A stretch of 64,000 nucleotides of DNA from Nanobdellota archaeon (GTDB taxonomy: Archaea; Nanobdellota; Nanobdellia; Pacearchaeales; GW2011-AR1), in NCBI GenBank assembly GCA_030648155.1, contig JAUSIK010000016.1:81944-145943 (forward strand), given 5' to 3'. Numbering within the stretch: the stretch's first letter is position 1; each line of letters starts with the position of its first letter. Positions 6,832-55,799 of the stretch are shown here, piece after piece. Below the pieces are notes generated by a model, which saw only the letters and a program-made list of their open reading frames with translations, did not search any database and had not been told where the DNA came from. A program made the translations under genes and the position numbers.

Positions 6832-7638
6832 ATGGATTATGACGGAGTAATACAGGAAAGAAATTTAGAAAATATTGCTTCAAATAATGGGTTTAAGTTC
6901 AGTGATACATTCTTTCCTTATACTTCTGGAAAAATCGGACCTGAATTTGTAAATGCTGAAGTGGTCTGCCATAATAGAGATCACCATGATAGTGCAATTG
7001 AAGACCTAGCCAGATTAATAAGAAATAAAATTTCAGCTGAAAAATACGATTTTATTTCCGGAGGGGAAAGCAGAGATTGGGTTTTTTCCTTTCAAACTGC
7101 ACAAAAATTAGGAAAAGCTCACGTAATGCTTTACAAAGACGGAAAATATATTGGTGGACCTTTAAAAAATAAAAAAATAATCCATGTAGCAGATATTAAT
7201 AATGAAGGAAGCTCTATAGAAAAACATTGGAAACCAATAATCGAAAAAGAAGGGGGAAAAATTGAGACGGTATTCTTCTATGTTGAAAAATGCGATGAAG
7301 GCAAGCAAGTAATGAAAAGAATAGGATTAGAATCGTATGCTTTAGTTTATTTAGATGAAAATTCTTGGAAGTATCTTTTAGATAGAGAGTATATTACTAA
7401 AGAAAATTATAAATCTATATCAAAAAGAAAAAAAGACCCTGAAAAATGGGCTAGGGAGATGCTTTTATCTGAAAAGGGAATTGAAAGACTAAAGGAATTG
7501 CTAGATGGAAATAATAAAAACAGGGATAGAGCTTTAAAAGTTTTAGAGAGAGGTTATCCAGATTTAAAGGAAGAAATACTGGCAAGATTGAAAAATAAAA
7601 ACGGTGGAAAGATAGAAAGTCTTATTAAGATGAAATAA
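6832..7638 (+). CDS. Type I phosphoribosyltransferase (orotate PRTase-like) with a helical C-terminal extension
   Basis: PRPP-loop-like IIHVADINNEGSS and an upstream SGGESRDW. About 75 aa of K/E-rich tail follow. Family-level call. Confidence 0.55.
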   Translation: MDYDGVIQERNLENIASNNGFKFSDTFFPYTSGKIGPEFVNAEVVCHNRDHHDSAIEDLARLIRNKISAEKYDFISGGESRDWVFSFQTAQKLGKAHVMLYKDGKYIGGPLKNKKIIHVADINNEGSSIEKHWKPIIEKEGGKIETVFFYVEKCDEGKQVMKRIGLESYALVYLDENSWKYLLDREYITKENYKSISKRKKDPEKWAREMLLSEKGIERLKELLDGNNKNRDRALKVLERGYPDLKEEILARLKNKNGGKIESLIKMK

Positions 7639-13903: not shown

Positions 13904-14266
13904 TCATCTGGCAAACTCCACATTTTCTAGATTTTCAAAAAATTCGTCACCTGTTAGAAACTTAAATCCTATTTTCTTTGATAAAATATATCCAACACAA
14001 TCAACATAGCTTAATTTCCTTTTATAATTTATTTTCCTGAATTTTGCAGCTTCCTTAGCAACTTCCTTATCTATTTCCAAAAATGAAAAATTAAACTTGT
14101 CTAAAACTTCATCGGCCTTTTTTTCATTTAGATTAGATAATAGGTAAAAATAAAATTCTGAAAGATTTAAAGTTGTGGTTATAAAAGTTAATTCAGCATA
14201 TTTTTGGTAACTCTTATTACCCTTAAGTATCTCAATAATCGCATAAGTGTCGAAGAAGTAATTCAT
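13904..14266 (-). CDS. vapC: PIN-domain toxin VapC
   Basis: The N-terminus MNYFFDTYAIIE is typical of PIN domains. This internal Met start leaves 1 nt between the VapB stop and the VapC ATG. Confidence 0.8.
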   Translation of the reverse strand: MNYFFDTYAIIEILKGNKSYQKYAELTFITTTLNLSEFYFYLLSNLNEKKADEVLDKFNFSFLEIDKEVAKEAAKFRKINYKRKLSYVDCVGYILSKKIGFKFLTGDEFFENLENVEFAR

Positions 14267-14267
14267 T

Positions 14268-14504
14268 CTAGTCTTCCGGCCAAAAAGCTTTGTCAACATC
14301 TCTTAATGCTTTTTGAGTGTTAATATTCTTTAGTTCTTTTGCTAACATCCCAAAAACATCTCTGACCTTTGTTTTATCTTTAGTCTCTACAGTAATAATT
14401 ATTTCTTTTCCCTCACTTAATTTTTCTTTTTCTACTATTTTCATAGGCAGGACTATTCCAAATGAATTCCCCCATTTTTTTACGTGAACGATAGTTCTTT
14501 CCAT
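14268..14504 (-). CDS. vapB: AbrB/SpoVT-fold antitoxin VapB
   Basis: VKKWGNSFGIVLPMKIV is a SpoVT/AbrB swapped-hairpin motif. The gene lies directly upstream of the PIN gene. Confidence 0.8.
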   Translation of the reverse strand: MERTIVHVKKWGNSFGIVLPMKIVEKEKLSEGKEIIITVETKDKTKVRDVFGMLAKELKNINTQKALRDVDKAFWPED

Positions 14505-14584: not shown

Positions 14585-15325
14585 ATGTATATTGATGTTC
14601 ACTGCCATTTAGATATATGCAAAGATATTGATAAAATTATTGAAGAAGTTAGAAAGAAAAAAATAGGAATTATTATTTCTAATGGAGTTAAACCTAGTGT
14701 TAATAGAAAAATTTTAGAATTGGCTAAAAAATATAAAGAAGTTAAATGCTCAATGGGGATTTATCCTATTGATGCTTTAGCTTTGTCTGACGGAGAAATT
14801 GATGAAGAAATTAAATTTATAAGAAAGAATAAAGATAAAGTCACTGCAATTGGGGAGGTTGGAATTGATTATAAGGAAGACTCTGAAAATTGGGATAGGC
14901 AGAAGAAAATTTTCCGCAAATTTATCAATTTAAGTATAGAATTAAATAAACCTATAATTGTGCACTCAAGAAAAGCTGAAAAGGAATGTATTGAAATTTT
15001 AGAAGAGTTGAATGCTAAAAAAGTAGTAATGCATTGTTTTTCTGGGAAATTTTCACTTATTGAAAGAATATCCCGCAATGGATGGTTTTTATCTATTCCT
15101 GGAAATGTAAACCACAGCGAACAGTTTCAAAATATTGCTAAGAAAATAGATATTAAAAATTTATTGTGCGAAACAGATGCGCCTTATTTGCATCCATTAA
15201 AAGAAAGAGACAACACTCCTGTTAATGTTATTTATTCTTATAAAAAAATTGCTGAATTAAAAAATATGAAAATAAAAGATGTGGAAAAAGCAATTGAAAA
15301 GAATTATTACAGGCTGTTTAGCTAA
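14585..15325 (+). CDS. TatD-family metal-dependent hydrolase/DNase
   Basis: N-terminal IDVHCHLD, internal EVGIDY and HSR motifs, and C-terminal ETDAPYL. Confidence 0.85.
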   Translation: MYIDVHCHLDICKDIDKIIEEVRKKKIGIIISNGVKPSVNRKILELAKKYKEVKCSMGIYPIDALALSDGEIDEEIKFIRKNKDKVTAIGEVGIDYKEDSENWDRQKKIFRKFINLSIELNKPIIVHSRKAEKECIEILEELNAKKVVMHCFSGKFSLIERISRNGWFLSIPGNVNHSEQFQNIAKKIDIKNLLCETDAPYLHPLKERDNTPVNVIYSYKKIAELKNMKIKDVEKAIEKNYYRLFS

Positions 15326-16181
15326 ACAGGCCTTTAACCCAATTCCATAGACGAGAAAAAAATCCAGGATTGTTTGATTCTGGATTTTGAGATTCTATTA
15401 TGGTATCATTATTTGAAGAATTCATTGATTTATTGTTAATAATAGCATTTGCTTCTTCTACCGTAACTTGCCTACCGCCTGAAGAATTATTTTCTGAAAT
15501 TGATTCGTTATTTGTGACTGGAGCCGTTTGATTAATTTGCGAGGATTGATTTAATGCTGTTTCATTATTAGTTTCATTTTTTTGGATTGTTAATATGGAA
15601 ATTTCTCCGGTTAAGCATTTGTATACAGTTAACAGAGCATTTGAAGTAGATGCAGTGTTTAATTCAATGACGAATGTTTTGTTTCCAAAAGATATTTTTT
15701 CTTCAGGCTTTTCGGTGTTTGATAAAGTCAATTGTTTTGCTCCAACTACTGCCCTTACTTTTCCTCCTTCAGTAACTTCAGCATTTGAAACCATGACAAA
15801 AAGCCCTTTTATTGTTTCTACTTCATTTTCCTCCAGGGTCTTGGATTCCCCATCGATAGATAATTGCGCATTTGTATCTGTTGAATTTTCGAATTTAACA
15901 GTATATTTACCTGTTAATAGTTCAATTTCTTGAGAAGAACTCGAGTTTGATAAATCAACTCTTCTTGCGTCTATAATCAAATCTGCACTTACTTTTTTAT
16001 AGAAAACTCTTTCTTCTGTTTTAGTCAGTCCAATTCCCAATCCATTTATTACTTTGCTTAATCCTATCTCTAATTCATCATCAGATGAGTCTGGGGTAGT
16101 TCCGTCTGAACAAATAGGTTTTGCTGATACTAATGAAAGTGAAATAAATATTATTAGAAATATCGCAATCTCTTTTTTCAT
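15318..16181 (-). CDS. Secreted S/N/T-rich protein with N-terminal signal/anchor
   Basis: MKKEIAIFLIIFISLSLVSA signal-like N-terminus and a low-complexity N/S-rich C-terminal third. The plus-strand ORF 15595..15933 is antisense to it and was discarded. Confidence 0.6.
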   Translation of the reverse strand: MKKEIAIFLIIFISLSLVSAKPICSDGTTPDSSDDELEIGLSKVINGLGIGLTKTEERVFYKKVSADLIIDARRVDLSNSSSSQEIELLTGKYTVKFENSTDTNAQLSIDGESKTLEENEVETIKGLFVMVSNAEVTEGGKVRAVVGAKQLTLSNTEKPEEKISFGNKTFVIELNTASTSNALLTVYKCLTGEISILTIQKNETNNETALNQSSQINQTAPVTNNESISENNSSGGRQVTVEEANAIINNKSMNSSNNDTIIESQNPESNNPGFFSRLWNWVKGLFS

Positions 16182-16213: not shown

Positions 16214-16226
16214 TGCGGGAGGGAGG
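16214..16226 (-). repeat. Duplicate of the tRNA-Leu 3' end (cctccctcccgca), distal copy
   Basis: Exact 13-nt match to the last 13 nt of tRNA-Leu(UAA) (comp. 16341-16329). Also identical to the 3' end of tRNA-Leu(CAA). Confidence 0.8.
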
Positions 16227-16239
16227 CTCACGAGATTAT

Positions 16240-16328
16240 GATCTCGGATCCGTCAAACTTTACAAAGTTTGAGGATTCGAACTTATGCACAGCATTTTGA
16301 ATCACCCATATAATCTAAAGATTATATA
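16240..16328 (-). repeat. 89-nt element E, copy 1 (directly 3' of tRNA-Leu(UAA))
   Basis: 84/89 identical to 37892-37980 on the other strand. Contains three hairpins (atataatc/gattatat, gattcaaa/ttcgaatc, caaactt/aagtttg). Confidence 0.8.
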
Positions 16329-16457
16329 TGCGGGAGGGAGGATTCGAACCTCCGAAGGCACTAAGCCACAAGATAACCTATATCTTGTTAAGCTACTTTC
16401 TCTAACGAGAAAGCGACATCTTAAGTCTTGCGCGTTTGACCACTTCGCTACCCCCGC
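16329..16457 (-). tRNA. tRNA-Leu(UAA) with a ~45-nt intron at the canonical 37/38 position (comp. ~16419-16375)
   Basis: Manual cloverleaf: acceptor GCGGGGG/CTCCCGC, anticodon stem CAAGA/TCTTG, loop CTTAAG|A, long variable arm, T-arm GGAGG-TTCGAATC-CCTCC, discriminator A. A TATA-like gctttaaaaatg lies ~30 nt upstream. Confidence 0.8.
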
Positions 16458-17403: not shown

Positions 17404-18231
17404 ATGGAAGAGGTTTTAAAAAAGCTTAAGACAGAGTTAAAAATTAGAGGTTTTTCACCTTTGACATTAAGAAATTATTCATTTTTTGTAGAAAAATTTC
17501 TGCTTAAGTCCAATAAAAATGAGAACGATCTTACACAAGATGATGCGAAAGCTTACCTAGGGGAGCTTTTTGATTCAAAATCGAAAAATACTATTATGCT
17601 TGCTGCTGCTTCTCTTAAATTTTTTTATACTGAAATATTAGGCAAAGAATTTTCGCAGATTAAAATGCCTAAAAAAGATAAAAAATTACCTGAAGTCTTA
17701 ACTAAAGAGGAAGTAAGAAAATTAATAGAAAGTGCAGATAATATAAAATCTAGATTAATTATCTCACTGCTTTATTCCAGCGGATTAAGGGTTTCTGAAC
17801 TTGTAAATTTAAAGAAGGATGATTTAAACTTGCAAGAGAAAATTGGCTGGGTTAGAAGAGGAAAGGGAGGGAAAGACAGACTCATTACATTGTCTGTAAA
17901 TTTGGCTGGAGAATTAAAAGATTATTTTGAAATGAAAGGAAAAGACAAAGTTTATGTTTTTTCCAAGGATAAACCGCTGACTACTAGAAATATTCAAAAG
18001 ATAATTAAAGGAACCAGGATTAGGGCAGGAATAAATAAGAAAGTTACACCGCATACACTACGGCATTCTTTTGCGACTCATTTGCTTGAGGCAGGAACAG
18101 ATATTAGATTTATTCAGAGCATGCTCGGGCATAGTAGTATTGCTACAACTCAAATTTACGCGCATGTTTCAACTGATGAAATAAAGAAAATTAAAAATCC
18201 TTTAGATGTGCTGGATAACGATTCAAAGTGA
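17404..18231 (+). CDS. xerA: Tyrosine recombinase, XerA/XerC/D-like
   Basis: SAM-like N-domain, then catalytic residues in GLRVSELVNL (R), HTLRHSFATHLL (HxxR) and GHSSIATTQIYAHV (H...Y). The 275-aa size is typical of archaeal XerA. Confidence 0.85.
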   Translation: MEEVLKKLKTELKIRGFSPLTLRNYSFFVEKFLLKSNKNENDLTQDDAKAYLGELFDSKSKNTIMLAAASLKFFYTEILGKEFSQIKMPKKDKKLPEVLTKEEVRKLIESADNIKSRLIISLLYSSGLRVSELVNLKKDDLNLQEKIGWVRRGKGGKDRLITLSVNLAGELKDYFEMKGKDKVYVFSKDKPLTTRNIQKIIKGTRIRAGINKKVTPHTLRHSFATHLLEAGTDIRFIQSMLGHSSIATTQIYAHVSTDEIKKIKNPLDVLDNDSK

Positions 18232-24438: not shown

Positions 24439-24522
24439 GCGGAGATGCCGGAGCGGTCAAACGGACGCGATTAAGGCTCGCGTGGCTTAGTGCCTTCGAA
24501 GGTTCGAATCCTTCTCTCCGCA
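24439..24522 (+). tRNA. tRNA-Leu with anticodon AAG (as folded by hand)
   Basis: Acceptor GCGGAGA/TCTCCGC, anticodon stem CGCGA/TCGCG, loop TTAAGGC, long variable arm TGGCTTAGTGCCTTC, T-arm GAAGG-TTCGAATC-CTTC, discriminator A. A TATA-like aaacttataaacg lies ~25-35 nt upstream. Confidence 0.75.
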
Positions 24523-24597
24523 TTTCATGATCAAAGATCATGTCAAATCTCAAGGATTTGAAAGGTTGCTAGATACAAAACCCGCTGGAGGTTTTGA

Positions 24598-24617
24598 TTC
24601 GGATACTTCTCTCCGCA
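24598..24617 (+). repeat. Degenerate duplicate of the tRNA-Leu(AAG) T-loop/3' end
   Basis: ttcggatacttctctccgca versus the tRNA's ttcgaatccttctctccgca (18/20). The last 12 nt (24606-24617) are exact. Confidence 0.75.
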
Positions 24618-24676
24618 TAACCTGTTGGAAAACAGGTTTAATCCAAAGGATTAATTGTGCAAAAGAAAAAATGCTG

Positions 24677-36470: not shown

Positions 36471-36587
36471 TGAAGACGGCCATAGTAATGAGGCAATACC
36501 TGTTCCCATTTCGAACACAGAAGTCAAGCTCACTACGTCTGCTGCGTTAGTCTCCGACAAGAGGCGAAGCACAGATGCTGTCTTCAC
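36471..36587 (+). rRNA. rrf: 5S ribosomal RNA (stand-alone)
   Basis: Terminal helix TGAAGACGG / CTGTCTTCA and the conserved core ggccatag...cccatttcgaacacagaagtcaagc, followed by a T-run (36589-36595). Confidence 0.85.
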
Positions 36588-37663: not shown

Positions 37664-37747
37664 GCGGGGGTAGCGAAGTGGTCAAACGCGACAGCCTCAA
37701 GAGCTGTTTCCTTAGTGGATTCGGAGGTTCGAATCCTCCCTCCCGCA
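37664..37747 (+). tRNA. tRNA-Leu(CAA), intron-less
   Basis: Acceptor GCGGGGG/CTCCCGC, anticodon stem ACAGC/GCTGT, loop CTCAAGA, long variable arm, T-arm GGAGG-TTCGAATC-CCTCC. The first 27 nt and last 28 nt are identical to tRNA-Leu(UAA). Confidence 0.85.
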
Positions 37748-37876
37748 TTTATCCCATCAAAGATGGGATTCAATTCTGAAGGAATTGTGCATACGCTAGA
37801 CTACTGTTTTTATAACAGGTAATAGTTTCTTTGAACTCATAGAAGGTTTCTTTACAAAGAAAGCTTGTATTTCTGG

Positions 37877-37891
37877 ATCCTCCCTCCCGCA
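37877..37891 (+). repeat. Exact 15-nt duplicate of the tRNA-Leu(CAA) 3' end (atcctccctcccgca)
   Basis: Identical to 37733-37747. Confidence 0.85.
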
Positions 37892-37980
37892 TATATAATC
37901 TTTAGATTATATGGATGATTCGAAATGCTGTGTATAAGTTCGAATACTCAAACTTTGTAAAGTTTGATGGATCCGAGATC
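37892..37980 (+). repeat. 89-nt element E, copy 2
   Basis: 84/89 identical to the reverse complement of 16240-16328. Confidence 0.8.
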
Positions 37981-38151
37981 TTGTGTTTCTGCGACTCACC
38001 ATGGAAATAATTACCATGGATATTGCGCTGATGAGTCTGAAAGACAACCAAGAAAATTAATTGAAATACAGACTAGTCTTATAAAGTCTTATAGAATTCT
38101 TTAGATGATATTGGATAATTTTTTACTCTCTGCTATTTTTTTGAATAGATA

Positions 38152-38161
38152 CCTTTAAATC
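38152..38161 (+). promoter_or_regulatory. TATA-like box (cctttaaatc) upstream of tRNA-Arg
   Basis: Ends 26 nt before the tRNA 5' end. Confidence 0.5.
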
Positions 38162-38186
38162 GTGTTAAAAAGTTAAATTAAGTGAT

Positions 38187-43538: not shown

Positions 43539-44108
43539 ATGATACATATGGTTCAAAATAAGAACAATTTAGAATTGGAAATAATCTTGATTTTGTTAAA
43601 GAATAAATCTCATCTAAGAGAGATAGCAAGAGCTCTCAATGAATCCCACTCCACAATCCACAGAAAGATTAATGAATTATTGAAAGAGAATGTCTTAGAT
43701 TATAAGAGAGAAGGTAAAAATAAAATATTTTTTATTAAAAATAACTTAAAAGCTAAAAATTATGTTTATTCGGCCGAAATTCACAAATTAAATAGTCTTC
43801 TGAAAAAACATCCGGAATTATCCATAATTTTGGAGGATATTAAAAAATATTTCTCAAAAGGAATGATAATCTTATTTGGAAGTTATGCTAAAGGAATTCC
43901 TAAGAAGGATAGTGATATTGATATTTACTTAGAAACTAATGACGATAGCTTAAAAAATAAAATGAAAGAAACAAATTCTAAGTTAAGCATAAAAATAGGG
44001 AAATTTGATACAAAATCTTTATTAGTTAAGGAAATTATAAAGAATCATATAATCATAAGAGGGGTGGAGGATTTTTATGAAAAAGTTGAATTTTTTAAAG
44101 AAGCTTAA
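43539..44108 (+). CDS. wHTH + minimal nucleotidyltransferase (MNT-type antitoxin)
   Basis: ILFGSYAKGIPKKDSDIDIYL (GSx10DxD) after an N-terminal HTH (LREIARALNESHSTIHRKINEL). Alternative start at 43548. Confidence 0.75.
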   Translation: MIHMVQNKNNLELEIILILLKNKSHLREIARALNESHSTIHRKINELLKENVLDYKREGKNKIFFIKNNLKAKNYVYSAEIHKLNSLLKKHPELSIILEDIKKYFSKGMIILFGSYAKGIPKKDSDIDIYLETNDDSLKNKMKETNSKLSIKIGKFDTKSLLVKEIIKNHIIIRGVEDFYEKVEFFKEA

Positions 44109-44568
44109 ACAAAAAGGAGTTATTGAATTAGTTGAGTCTTCTGAAGAGATGAAATCTTCTTATTTAATAAAGGCAGATAACTGCCTTAAATCTGCAAAAA
44201 TACTATTTTCAAGCCAACTTTATGAGAACTCTACTTCTGAAGCTTATTATTGTATGTATAATTCTTTATTGTCACTATTATTCAAAATTGGAATTAAATC
44301 TGAGAGTCATTCTTCTTCAATAATTCTCTTTGATAAACTATTTGATGATAAAGAGATGGTAAAAATAATTTCTTTGGCTAAAGAAGAAAGAATTGACAAG
44401 CAATATTATGTGGAAACACAACAGATAGTTAAAGTAACTAAAGAATCGTGTAATGAGATGATACTAAAAGCAGAAGATTTTCTAGTCAAGATGAAGTTAT
44501 TAATAAGTGAAGTGAGTAATGAGAAAATCAATTCTGCCAGAGATTCTTTTAAAAAATTGTTGGAGTAA
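44077..44568 (+). CDS. HEPN-domain protein (toxin partner of the MNT)
   Basis: All-helical 163 aa whose start overlaps the MNT gene by 32 nt. This is the typical MNT-HEPN arrangement. Confidence 0.65.
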   Translation: MKKLNFLKKLKQKGVIELVESSEEMKSSYLIKADNCLKSAKILFSSQLYENSTSEAYYCMYNSLLSLLFKIGIKSESHSSSIILFDKLFDDKEMVKIISLAKEERIDKQYYVETQQIVKVTKESCNEMILKAEDFLVKMKLLISEVSNEKINSARDSFKKLLE

Positions 44569-54878: not shown

Positions 54879-55799
54879 TTATTTTACTAAAAACCTCTTG
54901 CAGATCTCAATAAGTCTAGGCTGAATCTTTTGTTTGAATTCTTCAAACTCTTCCTCGTCATAAGAAGCTATTGCTAACTCTTCTACCTTCTCCTCACTTT
55001 CAAAGAACTTACCATTTTGAAGAAGATTAAGTTTTTCGCTTATCAATTTAGCAAAATCTATTTTAATAATGGATGAATTCTTTATTTTCTCAACAATCTC
55101 ATTTAAGTCTGCTTTAAGAGAGCCCTTTATCAAAAAAAGGTCGAATAAATCTCTTTCTTGAAGTTTATTTCTTGTCAGTACCGCCCTATACTTTTCTAGA
55201 GTTATTTCTTTTAGTGAATAGCTTAAAACATTGAAATTTTTTATGTCAAGCCCTAGCGTAAATAATAGCTCTTTAGAGTCAAATAGATCGGTTATTGCTT
55301 TGATTGAAACTTTTTCCGGAGGGCTATTCATTTTCTCAATAAAGTTTATTTCTACTTTTATAAACTTGTTTTCTGAATAATATATCTTGAATGTGTAAAC
55401 TGTTCTTCCGCTTAACATTTTACAATATCTCTTATTGCCCCTATCTGCGCTAAAATCAAGTCCAAGAATCTCTGCAACTTCTTTTAGCTTAGGAACAAAA
55501 TAATCAAGAAAAGCTTTAATTTTTCTTTCTCTCGCATTTCTTGTTAATTCTCTTAAACTACTCGAATCTTTATACACAAAATCCAAATCTTCAGAAAACC
55601 TGTGATATTTTAAGTAATTTCTTGAGAGTAATGTTCCGCCTTTGAAAATAAGTTCTTTTCCAAGATCTTTTTTCTCAAACTCTACTAAGATTAAGGTTAA
55701 AAGCAAATCTTTCTCTAAGATGTCTTTATTATGCTGGAGATTAAGATTGAGTTTCAATTGTTCTATATATCTGCTTATGTTGATTTCTTTCCAACCCAT
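54879..55799 (-). CDS. AbiEii/AbiGii-family nucleotidyltransferase toxin (DUF1814)
   Basis: FKGGTLLSRNYLKYHRFSEDLDF motif. Confidence 0.8.
   Translation of the reverse strand: MGWKEINISRYIEQLKLNLNLQHNKDILEKDLLLTLILVEFEKKDLGKELIFKGGTLLSRNYLKYHRFSEDLDFVYKDSSSLRELTRNARERKIKAFLDYFVPKLKEVAEILGLDFSADRGNKRYCKMLSGRTVYTFKIYYSENKFIKVEINFIEKMNSPPEKVSIKAITDLFDSKELLFTLGLDIKNFNVLSYSLKEITLEKYRAVLTRNKLQERDLFDLFLIKGSLKADLNEIVEKIKNSSIIKIDFAKLISEKLNLLQNGKFFESEEKVEELAIASYDEEEFEEFKQKIQPRLIEICKRFLVK

What the first reader, a model, noticed from the sequence alone, without database searches (positions are those of the whole stretch)
16214..16341. 89-nt element bracketed by 13-nt direct repeats at the 3' end of intron-containing tRNA-Leu(UAA)
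On the minus strand the tRNA ends in cctccctcccgca (comp. 16341-16329). Element E follows (comp. 16328-16240), then 13 nt (ataatctcgtgag), then a second exact cctccctcccgca (comp. 16226-16214). This is a complete insert-flanked-by-target-duplication layout with a tiny, ORF-less insert. E is 94% identical to the copy at 37892-37980, whereas the surrounding intergenic DNA is unrelated. Homology stops exactly at ...ccgagatc in both copies, which defines a discrete element boundary. E folds into three hairpins, and one contains a T-loop-like gttcgaatcc.
Basis: seen in the sequence. Interest (0 to 1): 0.65.

Follow-up and report, generated by a model that had tools for sequence, protein, structure and literature searches.

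The report
Small inserts stacked behind tRNA genes
The 89-base element is real. It is one member of a family of small, gene-less, hairpin-rich DNA modules that pile up directly behind tRNA genes in Woesearchaeota archaea, each bounded by a fresh copy of the last 12-15 bases of that tRNA, which points to an undescribed tRNA-targeting insertion process.

Summary
The sequence facts hold. CCTCCCTCCCGCA occurs exactly four times (0.26 expected), and E1 and E2 are 84/89 identical.

- E2 is also preceded by the 13-mer and lies behind tRNA-Leu(CAA).
- The "13-nt spacer" is the 3' arm of a hairpin that starts inside E. The unit is therefore 102 nt, and E2 is a truncated copy.
- A third tRNA-Leu (AAG, 24439-24522) carries a related module plus repeat.

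Related Woesearchaeota contigs show three module families (X, E, Y) in arrays directly behind tRNA-Leu(UAA/CAA/AAG), tRNA-Asp and tRNA-Met. Each module is followed by a copy of that tRNA's own 3' end. The right edge is always the discriminator base. The left edge is module-specific: position 59 for X, 61 for E.

Empty orthologous sites exist. Module similarity follows neither locus nor genome. Distal repeats are more decayed, and X is always nearest the tRNA.

The stems covary. There is no Rfam family, no phage or plasmid match, no terminal inverted repeats and no transposase in the window.

Best reading: these are non-autonomous, tRNA-3'-end-specific insertion modules that create a target duplication and are added at the tRNA-proximal end. 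The enzyme is unknown. The geometry resembles casposon integration. This is a new variant of a known kind, and the mechanism is inferred.

The parts
16329..16457 (-). tRNA-Leu(UAA) with a 45-nt canonical-position intron. Its last 13 nt (16329-16341) are repeat copy 1 of locus 1.
   Evidence: Rfam RF00005 49.5 bits; ARAGORN Leu(taa) with intron; sequence.
16227..16328 (-). Complete E module, 102 nt. Sub-features: hp1 16308-16327; T-loop-like GTTCGAATCC 16273-16282; hp3 16254-16271; hp4 16231-16246; TGAG 16227-16230.
   Evidence: Coordinates checked. Fold z = -3.1. Helices are kept with compensatory changes in L001, L025 and L018. nhmmer E-value 5e-26.
16214..16226 (-). Solo repeat copy 2 of locus 1 (tRNA nt 61-73, 13/13 identical). 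The ancestral flank and TATA-like TTTATAAATA of ORF 16181..15318 follow directly.
   Evidence: The same flank motif follows the last repeat in L018 and L021. The ORF is orthologous to those of L009 and L018.
37664..37747 (+). tRNA-Leu(CAA). Its last 15 nt (37733-37747, ATCCTCCCTCCCGCA) are repeat copy 1 of locus 2.
   Evidence: Rfam 60.8 bits; ARAGORN.
37748..37876 (+). X module, 129 nt. Order of features: hp1, hp2, conserved TTGTGCATACGCTAGAC, hp3, TTTGAACTCATAGAA, hp4, TTGTATTTCTGG.
   Evidence: nhmmer E-value 6e-30. Seven copies aligned. Covariation, folds.
37877..37891 (+). Solo repeat copy 2 of locus 2 (tRNA nt 59-73, 15/15 identical), lying between X and E2.
37892..37980 (+). E2, a 3'-truncated E module (84/89 identical to E1). 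It lacks the 3' arm of hp4, the TGAG tail and a terminal repeat.
37981..38186 (+). Remaining 206 nt of inserted DNA between tRNA-Leu(CAA) and tRNA-Arg(CCT). It includes a TATA-like CCTTTAAAT about 30 nt before tRNA-Arg. In relatives L030 and L032 the two tRNAs abut with 0-1 nt between them.
   Evidence: The promoter reading is inference.
24439..24522 (+). tRNA-Leu(AAG). Its last 12 nt are repeat copy 1 of locus 3.
   Evidence: ARAGORN; Rfam 52 bits.
24523..24605 (+). Y module, 83 nt. Order of features: hp1, hp2, AAAGGTTGCTAGATAC, a hairpin AAAACC..GGTTTT, and a T-loop-like end GATTCGGATA.
   Evidence: Homologous to the second module of L002 (nhmmer E-value 5e-24). Sequence. Fold z = -2.0.
24606..24617 (+). 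Solo repeat CTTCTCTCCGCA, 12/12 identical to the end of tRNA-Leu(AAG).
24618..24661 (+). Truncated start of a further module (hp1 AACCTGTT..AACAGGTT, hp2 TAATCC..GGATTA, ATTGTGCA), with no terminal repeat.
   Evidence: Sequence. Assignment rests on resemblance to the shared 5' module and is inference.

Best explanation
E is an older, partly decayed member of a family of small (about 70-130 nt), ORF-less, hairpin-rich, non-autonomous insertion modules (X, E, Y) found in Woesearchaeota. The modules are inserted as DNA immediately after the discriminator base of tRNA genes. Each insertion leaves a second copy of the tRNA's last 12-15 nt on the far side of the insert (from T-loop position 59 for X, or 61 for E, to position 73), so the tRNA stays intact.

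New modules enter at the tRNA-proximal repeat, the only one next to an intact T-arm. Arrays therefore grow polarly: X is youngest, E and Y are older and further out, and the distal repeats decay.

Shown here: insertion polymorphism, tRNA-specific repeats at five tRNA species, array polarity, module phylogeny that does not follow locus or genome, and conserved stems.

Inferred: the repeat is a true target-site duplication made by a trans-acting enzyme that positions staggered cuts relative to the conserved T-loop/3' end of the tRNA gene. This geometry is like casposase integration next to a T-psi-C-loop segment. Also inferred: the conserved hairpins and motifs are cis signals for that process, and/or keep the upstream tRNA processable. 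The enzyme is not identified.
For: 1. Repeats are non-random and tRNA-specific.
- The 13-mer occurs 4 times against 0.26 expected.
- All three tRNA-Leu genes of the window carry a module plus a copy of their own 3' end. tRNA-Arg and tRNA-Ser do not.
- In relatives the solo copies track each genome's own tRNA end: CCTCCTTCCCGCA, CTACTCCCCGCA, CCTCCTCCCCaCA.

2. The same X module (pattern search) lies behind tRNA-Asp(GTC), tRNA-Met(CAT), tRNA-Leu(AAG) and tRNA-Leu(UAA). Each time it is followed by nt 59-73 of that particular tRNA.

3. Empty sites exist.
- L009 has tRNA-Leu(UAA) directly followed by flank and the orthologous ORF (47% identity, 1e-78).
- L030 and L032 have tRNA-Leu(CAA) abutting tRNA-Arg(CCT), where the window has 438 nt.

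4. X identity ignores orthology and genome. Leu-CAA (window), Leu-UAA (L002) and Leu-AAG (L025) copies are 83-90% identical. Two copies in one genome are 68% identical. Orthologous Leu-UAA loci are 60-68% identical.

5. Polarity. X is proximal in 5 of 5 mixed arrays, and distal repeats are more degenerate. The ancestral flank follows the last repeat in W1, L018 and L021.

6. Stems are kept by compensatory changes. For X, 96% of cells are paired, 19 cells have double changes, and 0 of 500 shuffles reach this. For E, 95% are paired, 8 pairs have double changes, and 0 of 500 shuffles reach this. Slid controls give 18-60% paired.

7. Published precedent for the geometry. The A. boonei casposase needs the T-psi-C-loop segment plus a 15-bp TSD. 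M. mazei casposons at tRNA-Leu form tandem arrays that share one TSD (PMC5137440, PMC4779613).
Against: - No terminal inverted repeats in X or E, and no conserved right end across module types.
- Pfam found no transposase, Cas1, reverse transcriptase or TnpB among the 50 largest non-overlapping window ORFs scanned. It found only a housekeeping-type XerA.
- The repeat's right edge is fixed at nt 73 while its left edge differs between module types. This is what element-borne tRNA fragments (attP-type) would give, and is less expected from a fixed-stagger cut.
- X and Y end in T-loop-like sequences (TTTCTGG-AT, ATTCGRAT). This also fits an attP mimic of attB.
- In L025 the two solo repeats resemble each other more than the tRNA end.
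- Two other inserts at the Leu(CAA)/Arg junction, the LAGLIDADG ORF and the ACT ORF, show no repeat.
- Only 5-7 distinct copies per family were available, from MAGs and metagenome contigs.
- There is no direct evidence of recent movement or of transcription.
Confidence: 0.6

Rival explanations
1. The modules are scars of conventional integrase-type mobile elements (plasmids or viruses). Such elements carry a tRNA 3' fragment in attP, integrate by tyrosine-recombinase crossover inside the tRNA 3' end, accumulate in tandem, and then lose almost all of their DNA. The direct repeats would be attL/attR cores.
For: - Partial tRNA duplication on MGE integration is the standard source of tRNA 3' fragments in archaea (PMC9897764).
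- The repeats run from the T-loop to the exact tRNA end, with element-type-specific length.
- X and Y ends mimic the T-loop, as an attP core would.
- Gene cassettes are bounded by the same repeats: an MNT/HepT toxin-antitoxin pair and a two-ORF cassette in L021.
- The region downstream of tRNA-Leu(UAA) is variable and rich in toxin-antitoxin genes.
Against: - Closely related X copies (74-90%) sit behind tRNAs with unrelated 3' ends (Leu, Asp, Met), each with the matching repeat. attP/attB homology cannot explain this without re-templating.
- All seven X copies have the same architecture and ends, which independent deletion remnants would not give.
- No integrase lies inside any array. The only recombinase nearby is a syntenic XerA equivalog.
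- No match to X, E or Y in IMG/VR, phage or plasmid collections.
Confidence: 0.2
2. X, E and Y are primarily functional structured RNAs or 3'-trailer elements co-transcribed with the tRNA, acting in termination, processing or stability, or as a small RNA. On this reading they are kept by selection, and the tRNA-like 3' tag is part of the RNA's function.
For: - Stems covary while single-stranded motifs stay invariant: TTGTGCATACGC, TTTGAACTCATAGAA, TTGTATTTC.
- Orientation is always that of the tRNA.
- In the E alignment, G-U cells on the tRNA-sense strand outnumber A-C cells by about 12 to 2.
- Every module begins with a hairpin 3-4 nt after the discriminator.
- T5-T6 runs lie at conserved places in X.
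Against: - Empty orthologous sites show the modules are dispensable.
- Distal repeats decay freely, as in L018, L021 and L025.
- E2 and the module at 24618-24661 are truncated.
- Distribution follows neither tRNA identity nor genome.
- No Rfam family matches.
- This reading is compatible with the best explanation as a secondary property, but it does not by itself explain the duplications.
Confidence: 0.1
3. E1 and E2 are simply products of segmental duplication or ectopic gene conversion between paralogous tRNA-Leu genes, which share identical 5' and 3' parts. No element is involved.
For: tRNA-Leu(UAA) and tRNA-Leu(CAA) share the 5' 26 nt and the 3' 25 nt, so ectopic recombination is possible. 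E has so far been seen only behind tRNA-Leu genes.
Against: - In locus 2, homology starts at the solo repeat behind X, not at the tRNA. It ends inside a hairpin, and nothing else is shared.
- Behind tRNA-Leu(AAG) in L025, E carries an AAG-type repeat (CCTTCTT..), not the UAA-type.
- This reading does not explain X behind Asp and Met, or the empty sites.
Confidence: 0.05
4. The modules are archaeal bulge-helix-bulge introns in the T-loop (position 58/59) that happen to begin with a copy of the 3' exon.
For: The organisms have intron-rich tRNAs: a 45-nt intron here and about 200 nt in L021. From my own knowledge, 58/59 is a known non-canonical intron position in some archaea.
Against: - The X 3' end (TTTCTGG) has the same sense as T-loop nt 54-58, so the 4-bp central helix of a BHB cannot form (sequence).
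- The upstream tRNA is already complete.
- 1-kb cassettes with reverse-strand genes share the same repeats.
Confidence: 0.02

Closest known systems
Casposons (Cas1/casposase transposons) at tRNA 3' ends, and their tandem arrays
   Same: - Insertion beside the T-psi-C-loop-encoding part of a tRNA gene.
- A 14-15-bp direct duplication.
- A TSD length that is specific to the element type.
- Repeated use of the same site, giving arrays in which neighbours share one repeat and the newest element is expected next to the tRNA (PMC5137440, PMC4779613).
   Different: - Casposons are 8-20 kb (my own knowledge), have terminal inverted repeats, and carry cas1 plus polB. The modules here are 70-130 nt, have no TIR and encode no protein.
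- The duplication here lies wholly inside the tRNA (nt 59-73). In A. boonei it overlaps the tRNA by only 5 bp.
- To my knowledge casposons are not described in DPANN, and no Cas1 was seen in the window.
Tyrosine-integrase integrative elements in tRNA genes, and their integrase-less derivatives (CIME-like elements, tycheposon satellites)
   Same: - Direct repeats made of the tRNA 3' end.
- Tandem accretion at one tRNA.
- Cargo-only or decayed units lacking a recombinase.
- Toxin-antitoxin cassettes in the same arrays (PMC9897764; bioRxiv 10.1101/2020.12.28.424599, listed).
   Different: - Those elements are tied to one tRNA by attP/attB sequence identity. Here one module family sits behind at least five tRNAs with unrelated 3' ends and always has the matching repeat.
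- The modules are far smaller than any described element of this kind and have conserved secondary structure.
MITEs (miniature inverted-repeat transposable elements)
   Same: Small, ORF-less, multi-copy, dependent on a trans-acting enzyme, and flanked by a target duplication.
   Different: The modules have no terminal inverted repeats and a fixed orientation. Their 12-15-bp duplication is longer than is usual for MITEs (my own knowledge), and their target position is strict, at the 3' end of tRNA genes.
IS200/IS605-derived palindrome-associated elements (PATEs)
   Same: No TIRs, subterminal hairpins at both ends, strict orientation, and structure rather than sequence conserved.
   Different: From my own knowledge, IS200/IS605 elements insert 3' of a 4-5-nt motif without any target duplication. 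No TnpA or TnpB was found in the window.

Membership tests
MITE | Terminal inverted repeats | tested here: not met
   X starts TTTATCC... and ends ...TTGTATTTCTGG. E starts TATATAATC and ends CTCGTGAG. The ends are not reverse complements.
MITE | Small, non-coding, multi-copy, flanked by a target-site duplication | tested here: met
   Modules are 70-130 nt with no conserved ORF. There are 2-7 copies per family in the sequences held. Repeats of 12-15 nt match the local tRNA.
Casposon or casposon derivative | Cas1 (casposase) and PolB genes inside the element or in the genome | not testable with these tools
   None among the 50 window ORFs scanned with Pfam. The rest of the genome (a 307-kb contig and beyond) could not be searched.
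Casposon or casposon derivative | Terminal inverted repeats bound by casposase | tested here: not met
   No TIRs.
Casposon or casposon derivative | TSD of about 14-15 bp adjacent to a T-psi-C-loop segment of a tRNA gene, with tandem arrays sharing a TSD | tested here: met
   X has a 15-nt repeat starting at T-loop position 59. Arrays such as tRNA-X-DR-E-DR share repeats. The register differs from A. boonei (PMC5137440).
Integrase-type integrative element (attL/attR in a tRNA) | Direct repeats equal to a tRNA 3' segment that restores the gene | tested here: met
Integrase-type integrative element (attL/attR in a tRNA) | Element-encoded integrase between the repeats | tested here: not met
   No ORF in X, E or Y. 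The L021 cassettes contain two ORFs without significant Pfam hits and an MNT/HepT pair. The nearby recombinase lies outside the arrays and is a XerA equivalog (266 bits against a 220 cutoff).
Integrase-type integrative element (attL/attR in a tRNA) | Specificity for one tRNA through attP/attB identity | tested here: not met
   X lies behind Leu(UAA), Leu(CAA), Leu(AAG), Asp(GTC) and Met(CAT), each with its own repeat. X copies behind Asp and Met are 74% identical to each other.
IS200/IS605 PATE | Insertion without target duplication, with TnpA/TnpB in the genome | tested here: not met
   12-15-nt duplications are present. No TnpA or TnpB in the window.
Archaeal BHB intron | Bulge-helix-bulge motif spanning both boundaries | tested here: not met
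   The module 3' end has the same sense as the T-loop, so no central helix is possible. The upstream tRNA is complete.
Any Rfam RNA family | Covariance-model match | tested here: not met
   Only tRNA hits at the three window loci and at L012. All other matches are far below gathering scores.
Integron (IntI + attI + attC cassettes) | attC sites with R''/R' core GTTRRRY, and an IntI gene next to the array | tested here: inconclusive
   A XerA-type recombinase is conserved two small ORFs upstream of the tRNA-Leu(UAA) array. However, arrays also occur 6-21 kb away and behind other tRNAs. By eye I saw no GTTRRRY cores at the module boundaries; no pattern search was run. The boundaries are 12-15-nt tRNA repeats.

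The most novel reading that the evidence does not exclude
The T-arm of a tRNA gene acts like a CRISPR leader for an undescribed integrase in DPANN archaea. The enzyme could be casposase/Cas1-like or wholly new. It would measure from the conserved T-loop, duplicate tRNA nt 59-73 whatever their sequence, and add structured ORF-less modules (and occasionally gene cassettes) one after another at the tRNA-proximal end. The result would be a repeat-insert-repeat array built from tRNA 3' ends, and the modules' conserved RNA or ssDNA folds would be the signals the machinery recognises.
Probability: 0.15. Interest if true: 0.9.

Novelty: new variant of a known kind. Interest (0 to 1): 0.68.

Why it matters
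If the reading is right, Woesearchaeota carry a tRNA-gene-specific insertion system that works by position. Its target is the last 12-15 nt of whichever tRNA it hits, not a particular sequence. It moves elements that are only about 100 nt long, encode nothing and have no inverted ends.

Three consequences would follow:
- It would be a new kind of safe-harbour mobile element in genomes usually thought of as streamlined.
- It would give a natural, analysable example of polar repeat-insert arrays growing next to a T-psi-C-loop segment. That is the same geometry invoked for casposons and for the origin of CRISPR arrays.
- It bears on the old proposal that insertions at tRNA 3' halves seed non-canonical introns and split tRNA genes.

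There is also a practical point. These solo tRNA ends and modules will confuse tRNA and ncRNA annotation in DPANN MAGs.

Tried and rejected
- E in public collections. Exact E blocks gave 0 hits in IMG/VR, 0 in GTDB genomes and 1 metagenome contig. The window's own genome is not in the species-representative set, so the full copy number in this genome could not be counted.
- Virus or plasmid origin. There were no X, E or Y matches in IMG/VR, INPHARED phages or PLSDB plasmids. The 11 IMG/VR hits to the 16-base core TTGTGCATACGCNAGAC lie inside unrelated viral coding DNA and are chance matches.
- Known RNA family. None was found.
- Split X module flanking cargo (an autonomous partner). Not found in the window or in any fetched locus.
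- dif/XerA idea. E hp1 (TATATAAT-CTTTAG-ATTATATG) looks like an 8-6-8 recombinase core, and XerA is a conserved neighbour. However, the first hairpin varies in sequence between modules, arrays occur far from xerA, and the archaeal dif paper gives no sequence in its text to compare. I dropped this as unsupported.
- BHB intron, split or permuted tRNA, and pseudo-tRNA readings. All were rejected from the sequence: no central helix is possible, and the modules have no 5' acceptor or T-stem strand.
- Retroelement-type origin. The boundary at position 59 coincides with the m1A58 stop of tRNA-primed reverse transcription (my own knowledge). But no repeat carries CCA, no RT was found, and E and Y start at 61-62. 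I did not pursue it.
- Random capture at a staggered break. All seven X copies are complete and in one orientation, which argues against it.
- Correction of my own earlier assumption. The ORF downstream of the L002 array is not an orthologue of window ORF 15318-16181.
Full report
**1. Checking the observation**

The window has 31.6% G+C. BRE/TATA-like GCTTTAAAA boxes lie about 30 nt upstream of the tRNAs. The closest public contigs are labelled Candidatus Woesearchaeota MAGs.

The 13-mer CCTCCCTCCCGCA occurs exactly four times. Allowing two mismatches adds no further sites, 0.26 are expected, and 0 of 100 shuffles reach four. Two copies are the 3' ends of tRNA-Leu(UAA) and tRNA-Leu(CAA). The UAA gene is at 16329-16457 on the minus strand and has a 45-nt intron. 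The CAA gene is at 37664-37747 on the plus strand. The other two copies are solo.

E1, comp(16240-16328), and E2, 37892-37980, are 84/89 identical. Sensitive searches find no other copy in the window.

**2.

- E2 is itself preceded by ATCCTCCCTCCCGCA (37877-37891). It lies behind tRNA-Leu(CAA), separated from it by a 129-nt module that I call X.
- The "13-nt spacer" ATAATCTCGTGAG supplies the 3' arm of a hairpin whose 5' arm, CGAGAT, is inside E. The relative L001 keeps this helix as CCAGAT/ATCTGG. The unit is therefore 102 nt (16227-16328). The homology stop at ...CCGAGATC is where E2 was truncated, in the hairpin loop. It is not an element boundary.
- The third tRNA-Leu of the window (anticodon AAG, 24439-24522; ARAGORN, and Rfam 52 bits) is followed by an 83-nt module Y. 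After Y comes a 12/12 copy of that tRNA's own end (CTTCTCTCCGCA, 24606-24617), and then the truncated start of a further module.
- tRNA-Arg(CCT) and tRNA-Ser(TGA) in the window have nothing of the kind.

**3. Related loci**

One exact E block hit a groundwater metagenome contig, L001. Homologues of the 53-aa ORF upstream of tRNA-Leu(UAA) and of the PfkB kinase upstream of tRNA-Leu(CAA) gave syntenic loci from about ten related genomes.

Behind tRNA-Leu(UAA) the layouts are:

| Locus | Layout after the tRNA |
|---|---|
| L001 | X, repeat, E, repeat |
| L002 | X, repeat, Y, repeat |
| L012 | X, a further piece, repeat |
| L016 | a short E-like unit, repeat |
| L018 | an E-like unit, degenerate repeat, MNT/HepT cassette, degenerate repeat |
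| L021 | a two-ORF cassette, repeat, MNT/HepT cassette, repeat |
| L009 | nothing |

L009 is an empty site flanked by the orthologue of window ORF 15318-16181 (47% identity, 1e-78).

At the CAA locus, L030 and L032 have tRNA-Leu(CAA) abutting tRNA-Arg(CCT) with 0-1 nt between them. The 438 nt between these genes in the window are therefore inserted DNA.

In every genome the solo repeats match that genome's own tRNA end, including lineage-specific substitutions. The ancestral flank (TTCCTTTA...TTTATAAATA) follows the last repeat.

**4. The decisive result**

A degenerate X pattern searched in 185,579 species genomes found four places, all in Woesearchaeota MAGs. There X lies directly behind tRNA-Asp(GTC), tRNA-Met(CAT), tRNA-Leu(AAG) and tRNA-Leu(UAA). 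In each case it is followed by nt 59-73 of that particular tRNA:
- TTCCCGG... at the contig end for Asp
- ATCCCACCCCCGCTA for Met
- ATCCTTCTTGGCCGCA, imperfect, for Leu-AAG

The repeat is therefore defined by position in the tRNA, not by sequence.

Its right edge is always the discriminator base. Its left edge is constant within a module family: position 59 for X (15 nt), position 61 for E (13 nt), and 12-13 nt for Y.

X copies do not group by locus or genome:
- Leu-CAA (window), Leu-UAA (L002) and Leu-AAG (L025) copies are 83-90% identical.
- The two copies in one MAG are 68% identical.
- Orthologous Leu-UAA loci are 60-68% identical.
- The Asp and Met copies are 74% identical.

X is nearest the tRNA in all five mixed arrays. 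Repeats behind X are mostly perfect, while those behind E and Y are often decayed.

**5. Anatomy of the modules**

All modules start 3-4 nt after the discriminator with a hairpin whose sequence varies freely. In most, a second hairpin (AATYC..GRATT) follows, and in X and E a TGTGCATA-type motif.

X continues with hp3, then an invariant GAACTCATAGAA / TTGTATTTC stem that encloses a covarying hp4.

For E, pairing is kept by compensatory changes in hp1, hp3 and hp4.

Counted on the alignments:

| Module | Cells paired | Double changes | Shuffles reaching this |
|---|---|---|---|
| X | 96% | 19 cells | 0 of 500 |
| E | 95% | 8 pairs | 0 of 500 |

Slid controls give 18-60% paired. The samples are small (7 and 5 sequences) and related, so this is supportive rather than conclusive.

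No Rfam family matches.

E's internal GTTCGAAT(C/A)CTC resembles the T-loop/T-stem junction with which Y ends (GATTCGAAT|CCTCC). I read it as a fossil junction inside a composite unit. This is inference.

**6. Mechanism**

Shown:
- The modules are inserted DNA.
- Each insertion is accompanied by a second copy of the resident tRNA's 3' end.
- The tRNA stays intact.
- Arrays are ordered with the youngest unit next to the tRNA.
- The families move between tRNA species and genomes.

Inferred: the repeat is a target-site duplication created by staggered cleavage, positioned relative to the conserved T-loop/3' end.

The closest documented geometry is casposon integration. The A. boonei casposase needs the T-psi-C-loop segment of tRNA-Pro plus an adjacent 15-bp segment, which is duplicated. 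M. mazei casposons at tRNA-Leu make 14-bp TSDs and tandem arrays that share a TSD (PMC5137440, PMC4779613).

Against membership in that family:
- There are no terminal inverted repeats.
- No Cas1 is in view. Pfam found no transposase, RT or TnpB among the 50 window ORFs scanned.
- The duplication register differs.

The tyrosine recombinase at 17404-18231 is a XerA equivalog (NCBIfam 266 bits against a 220 cutoff; PDB 4A8E, 7e-55). It is conserved in synteny with rpL13/rpS9 in all relatives. I treat it as a housekeeping gene that happens to be a neighbour.

**7. Rivals**

- **Integrase/attP scars.** This model explains the fixed right edge, the T-loop-like module ends and the toxin-antitoxin cassettes. 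It cannot explain one X lineage carrying matching repeats behind unrelated tRNAs. It also cannot explain why all X copies share the same ends. No extrachromosomal counterpart was found.
- **Purely functional RNA.** This is contradicted by the empty sites, the truncated copies and the decaying repeats. The modules may still be transcribed.
- **Segmental duplication.** This fails on the extent of homology.
- **T-loop BHB intron.** The module end has the same sense as the T-loop, so the required helix cannot form.

**8. Verdict**

The best explanation is a family of non-autonomous, tRNA-3'-end-specific insertion modules with target duplication and polar array growth. My overall confidence is about 0.6. 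It is high for insertion, duplication and family membership, and low for the enzyme and cutting model.

I found no description of such modules in five full-text literature searches covering casposons, XerA/dif, archaeal integrated elements at tRNA genes, Woesearchaeota tRNAs and miniature tRNA-associated elements. I rate it a new variant of a known kind.

Noticed in passing
window 24439-24661: A third tRNA-Leu (anticodon AAG) carries an 83-nt module Y, a 12-nt copy of its own 3' end, and the truncated start of another module. An A34 anticodon is unusual for an archaeal tRNA. The same anticodon occurs in relative L025.
   Followed up: partly
window 37748-37876: The 129-nt module X lies between tRNA-Leu(CAA) and the repeat in front of E2. 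It has invariant motifs TTGTGCATACGC, TTTGAACTCATAGAA and TTGTATTTC, and covarying hairpins. The same module sits behind tRNA-Asp and tRNA-Met in other Woesearchaeota MAGs (L024, L026).
   Followed up: yes
window 37748-38186; L030 2644-2806; L032 1923-2086: In two relatives tRNA-Leu(CAA) and tRNA-Arg(CCT) abut with 0-1 nt between them, probably forming one transcription unit. In the window 438 nt are inserted between them, and a TATA-like CCTTTAAAT lies about 30 nt before tRNA-Arg, as if the insert supplied a new promoter.
   Followed up: partly
L028/L029 3600-4628; L046 1971-2407: The same tRNA-Leu(CAA)/tRNA-Arg junction holds a 1.0-kb insert with a LAGLIDADG-type ORF in one relative (Pfam 23.0 bits against a 22.5 cutoff). 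In another it holds a split ACT-domain ORF. Neither has a recognisable repeat. This junction is a hypervariable insertion hotspot.
   Followed up: partly
window 17404-18231: A XerA-type tyrosine recombinase is conserved two small ORFs upstream of, and divergent from, tRNA-Leu(UAA) in every relative examined. The first hairpin of E (TATATAAT-CTTTAG-ATTATATG) has the 8-6-8 shape of a recombinase core site. No functional link could be shown.
   Followed up: partly
L021 836-2700 (also L018 3437-4300): Gene cassettes are bounded by the same tRNA-3'-end repeats as the small modules: two unknown reverse-strand ORFs (about 1.06 kb) and an MNT/HepT toxin-antitoxin pair (about 0.77 kb).
   Followed up: partly
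L021 609-852: tRNA-Leu(UAA) of this relative has an intron of about 200 nt at the canonical position, with two long hairpins. ARAGORN mislabels the gene as Ser(tga).
   Followed up: no
window 43539-44568, 54879-55799, 13904-14299: Toxin-antitoxin-type genes are scattered in the window: an MNT/HEPN pair next to tRNA-Ser(TGA), an AbiEii nucleotidyltransferase, and a PIN-domain protein. No tRNA-end repeat flanks the pair next to tRNA-Ser.
   Followed up: partly
window 36472-36586: A stand-alone 5S rRNA gene (Rfam 66 bits) lies just upstream of the PfkB gene and the tRNA-Leu(CAA)/tRNA-Arg pair.
   Followed up: no
L025 (reverse strand) 7128-7256: Behind tRNA-Leu(AAG) of MAG CAYHYK01, the two solo repeats (CCTTCTTGGCCGCA and CCTTCTTAGCCGCA) share a one-base insertion relative to the tRNA end (CCTTCTTCCCGCA). 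They resemble each other more than the tRNA. Simple stepwise duplication does not explain this.
   Followed up: no
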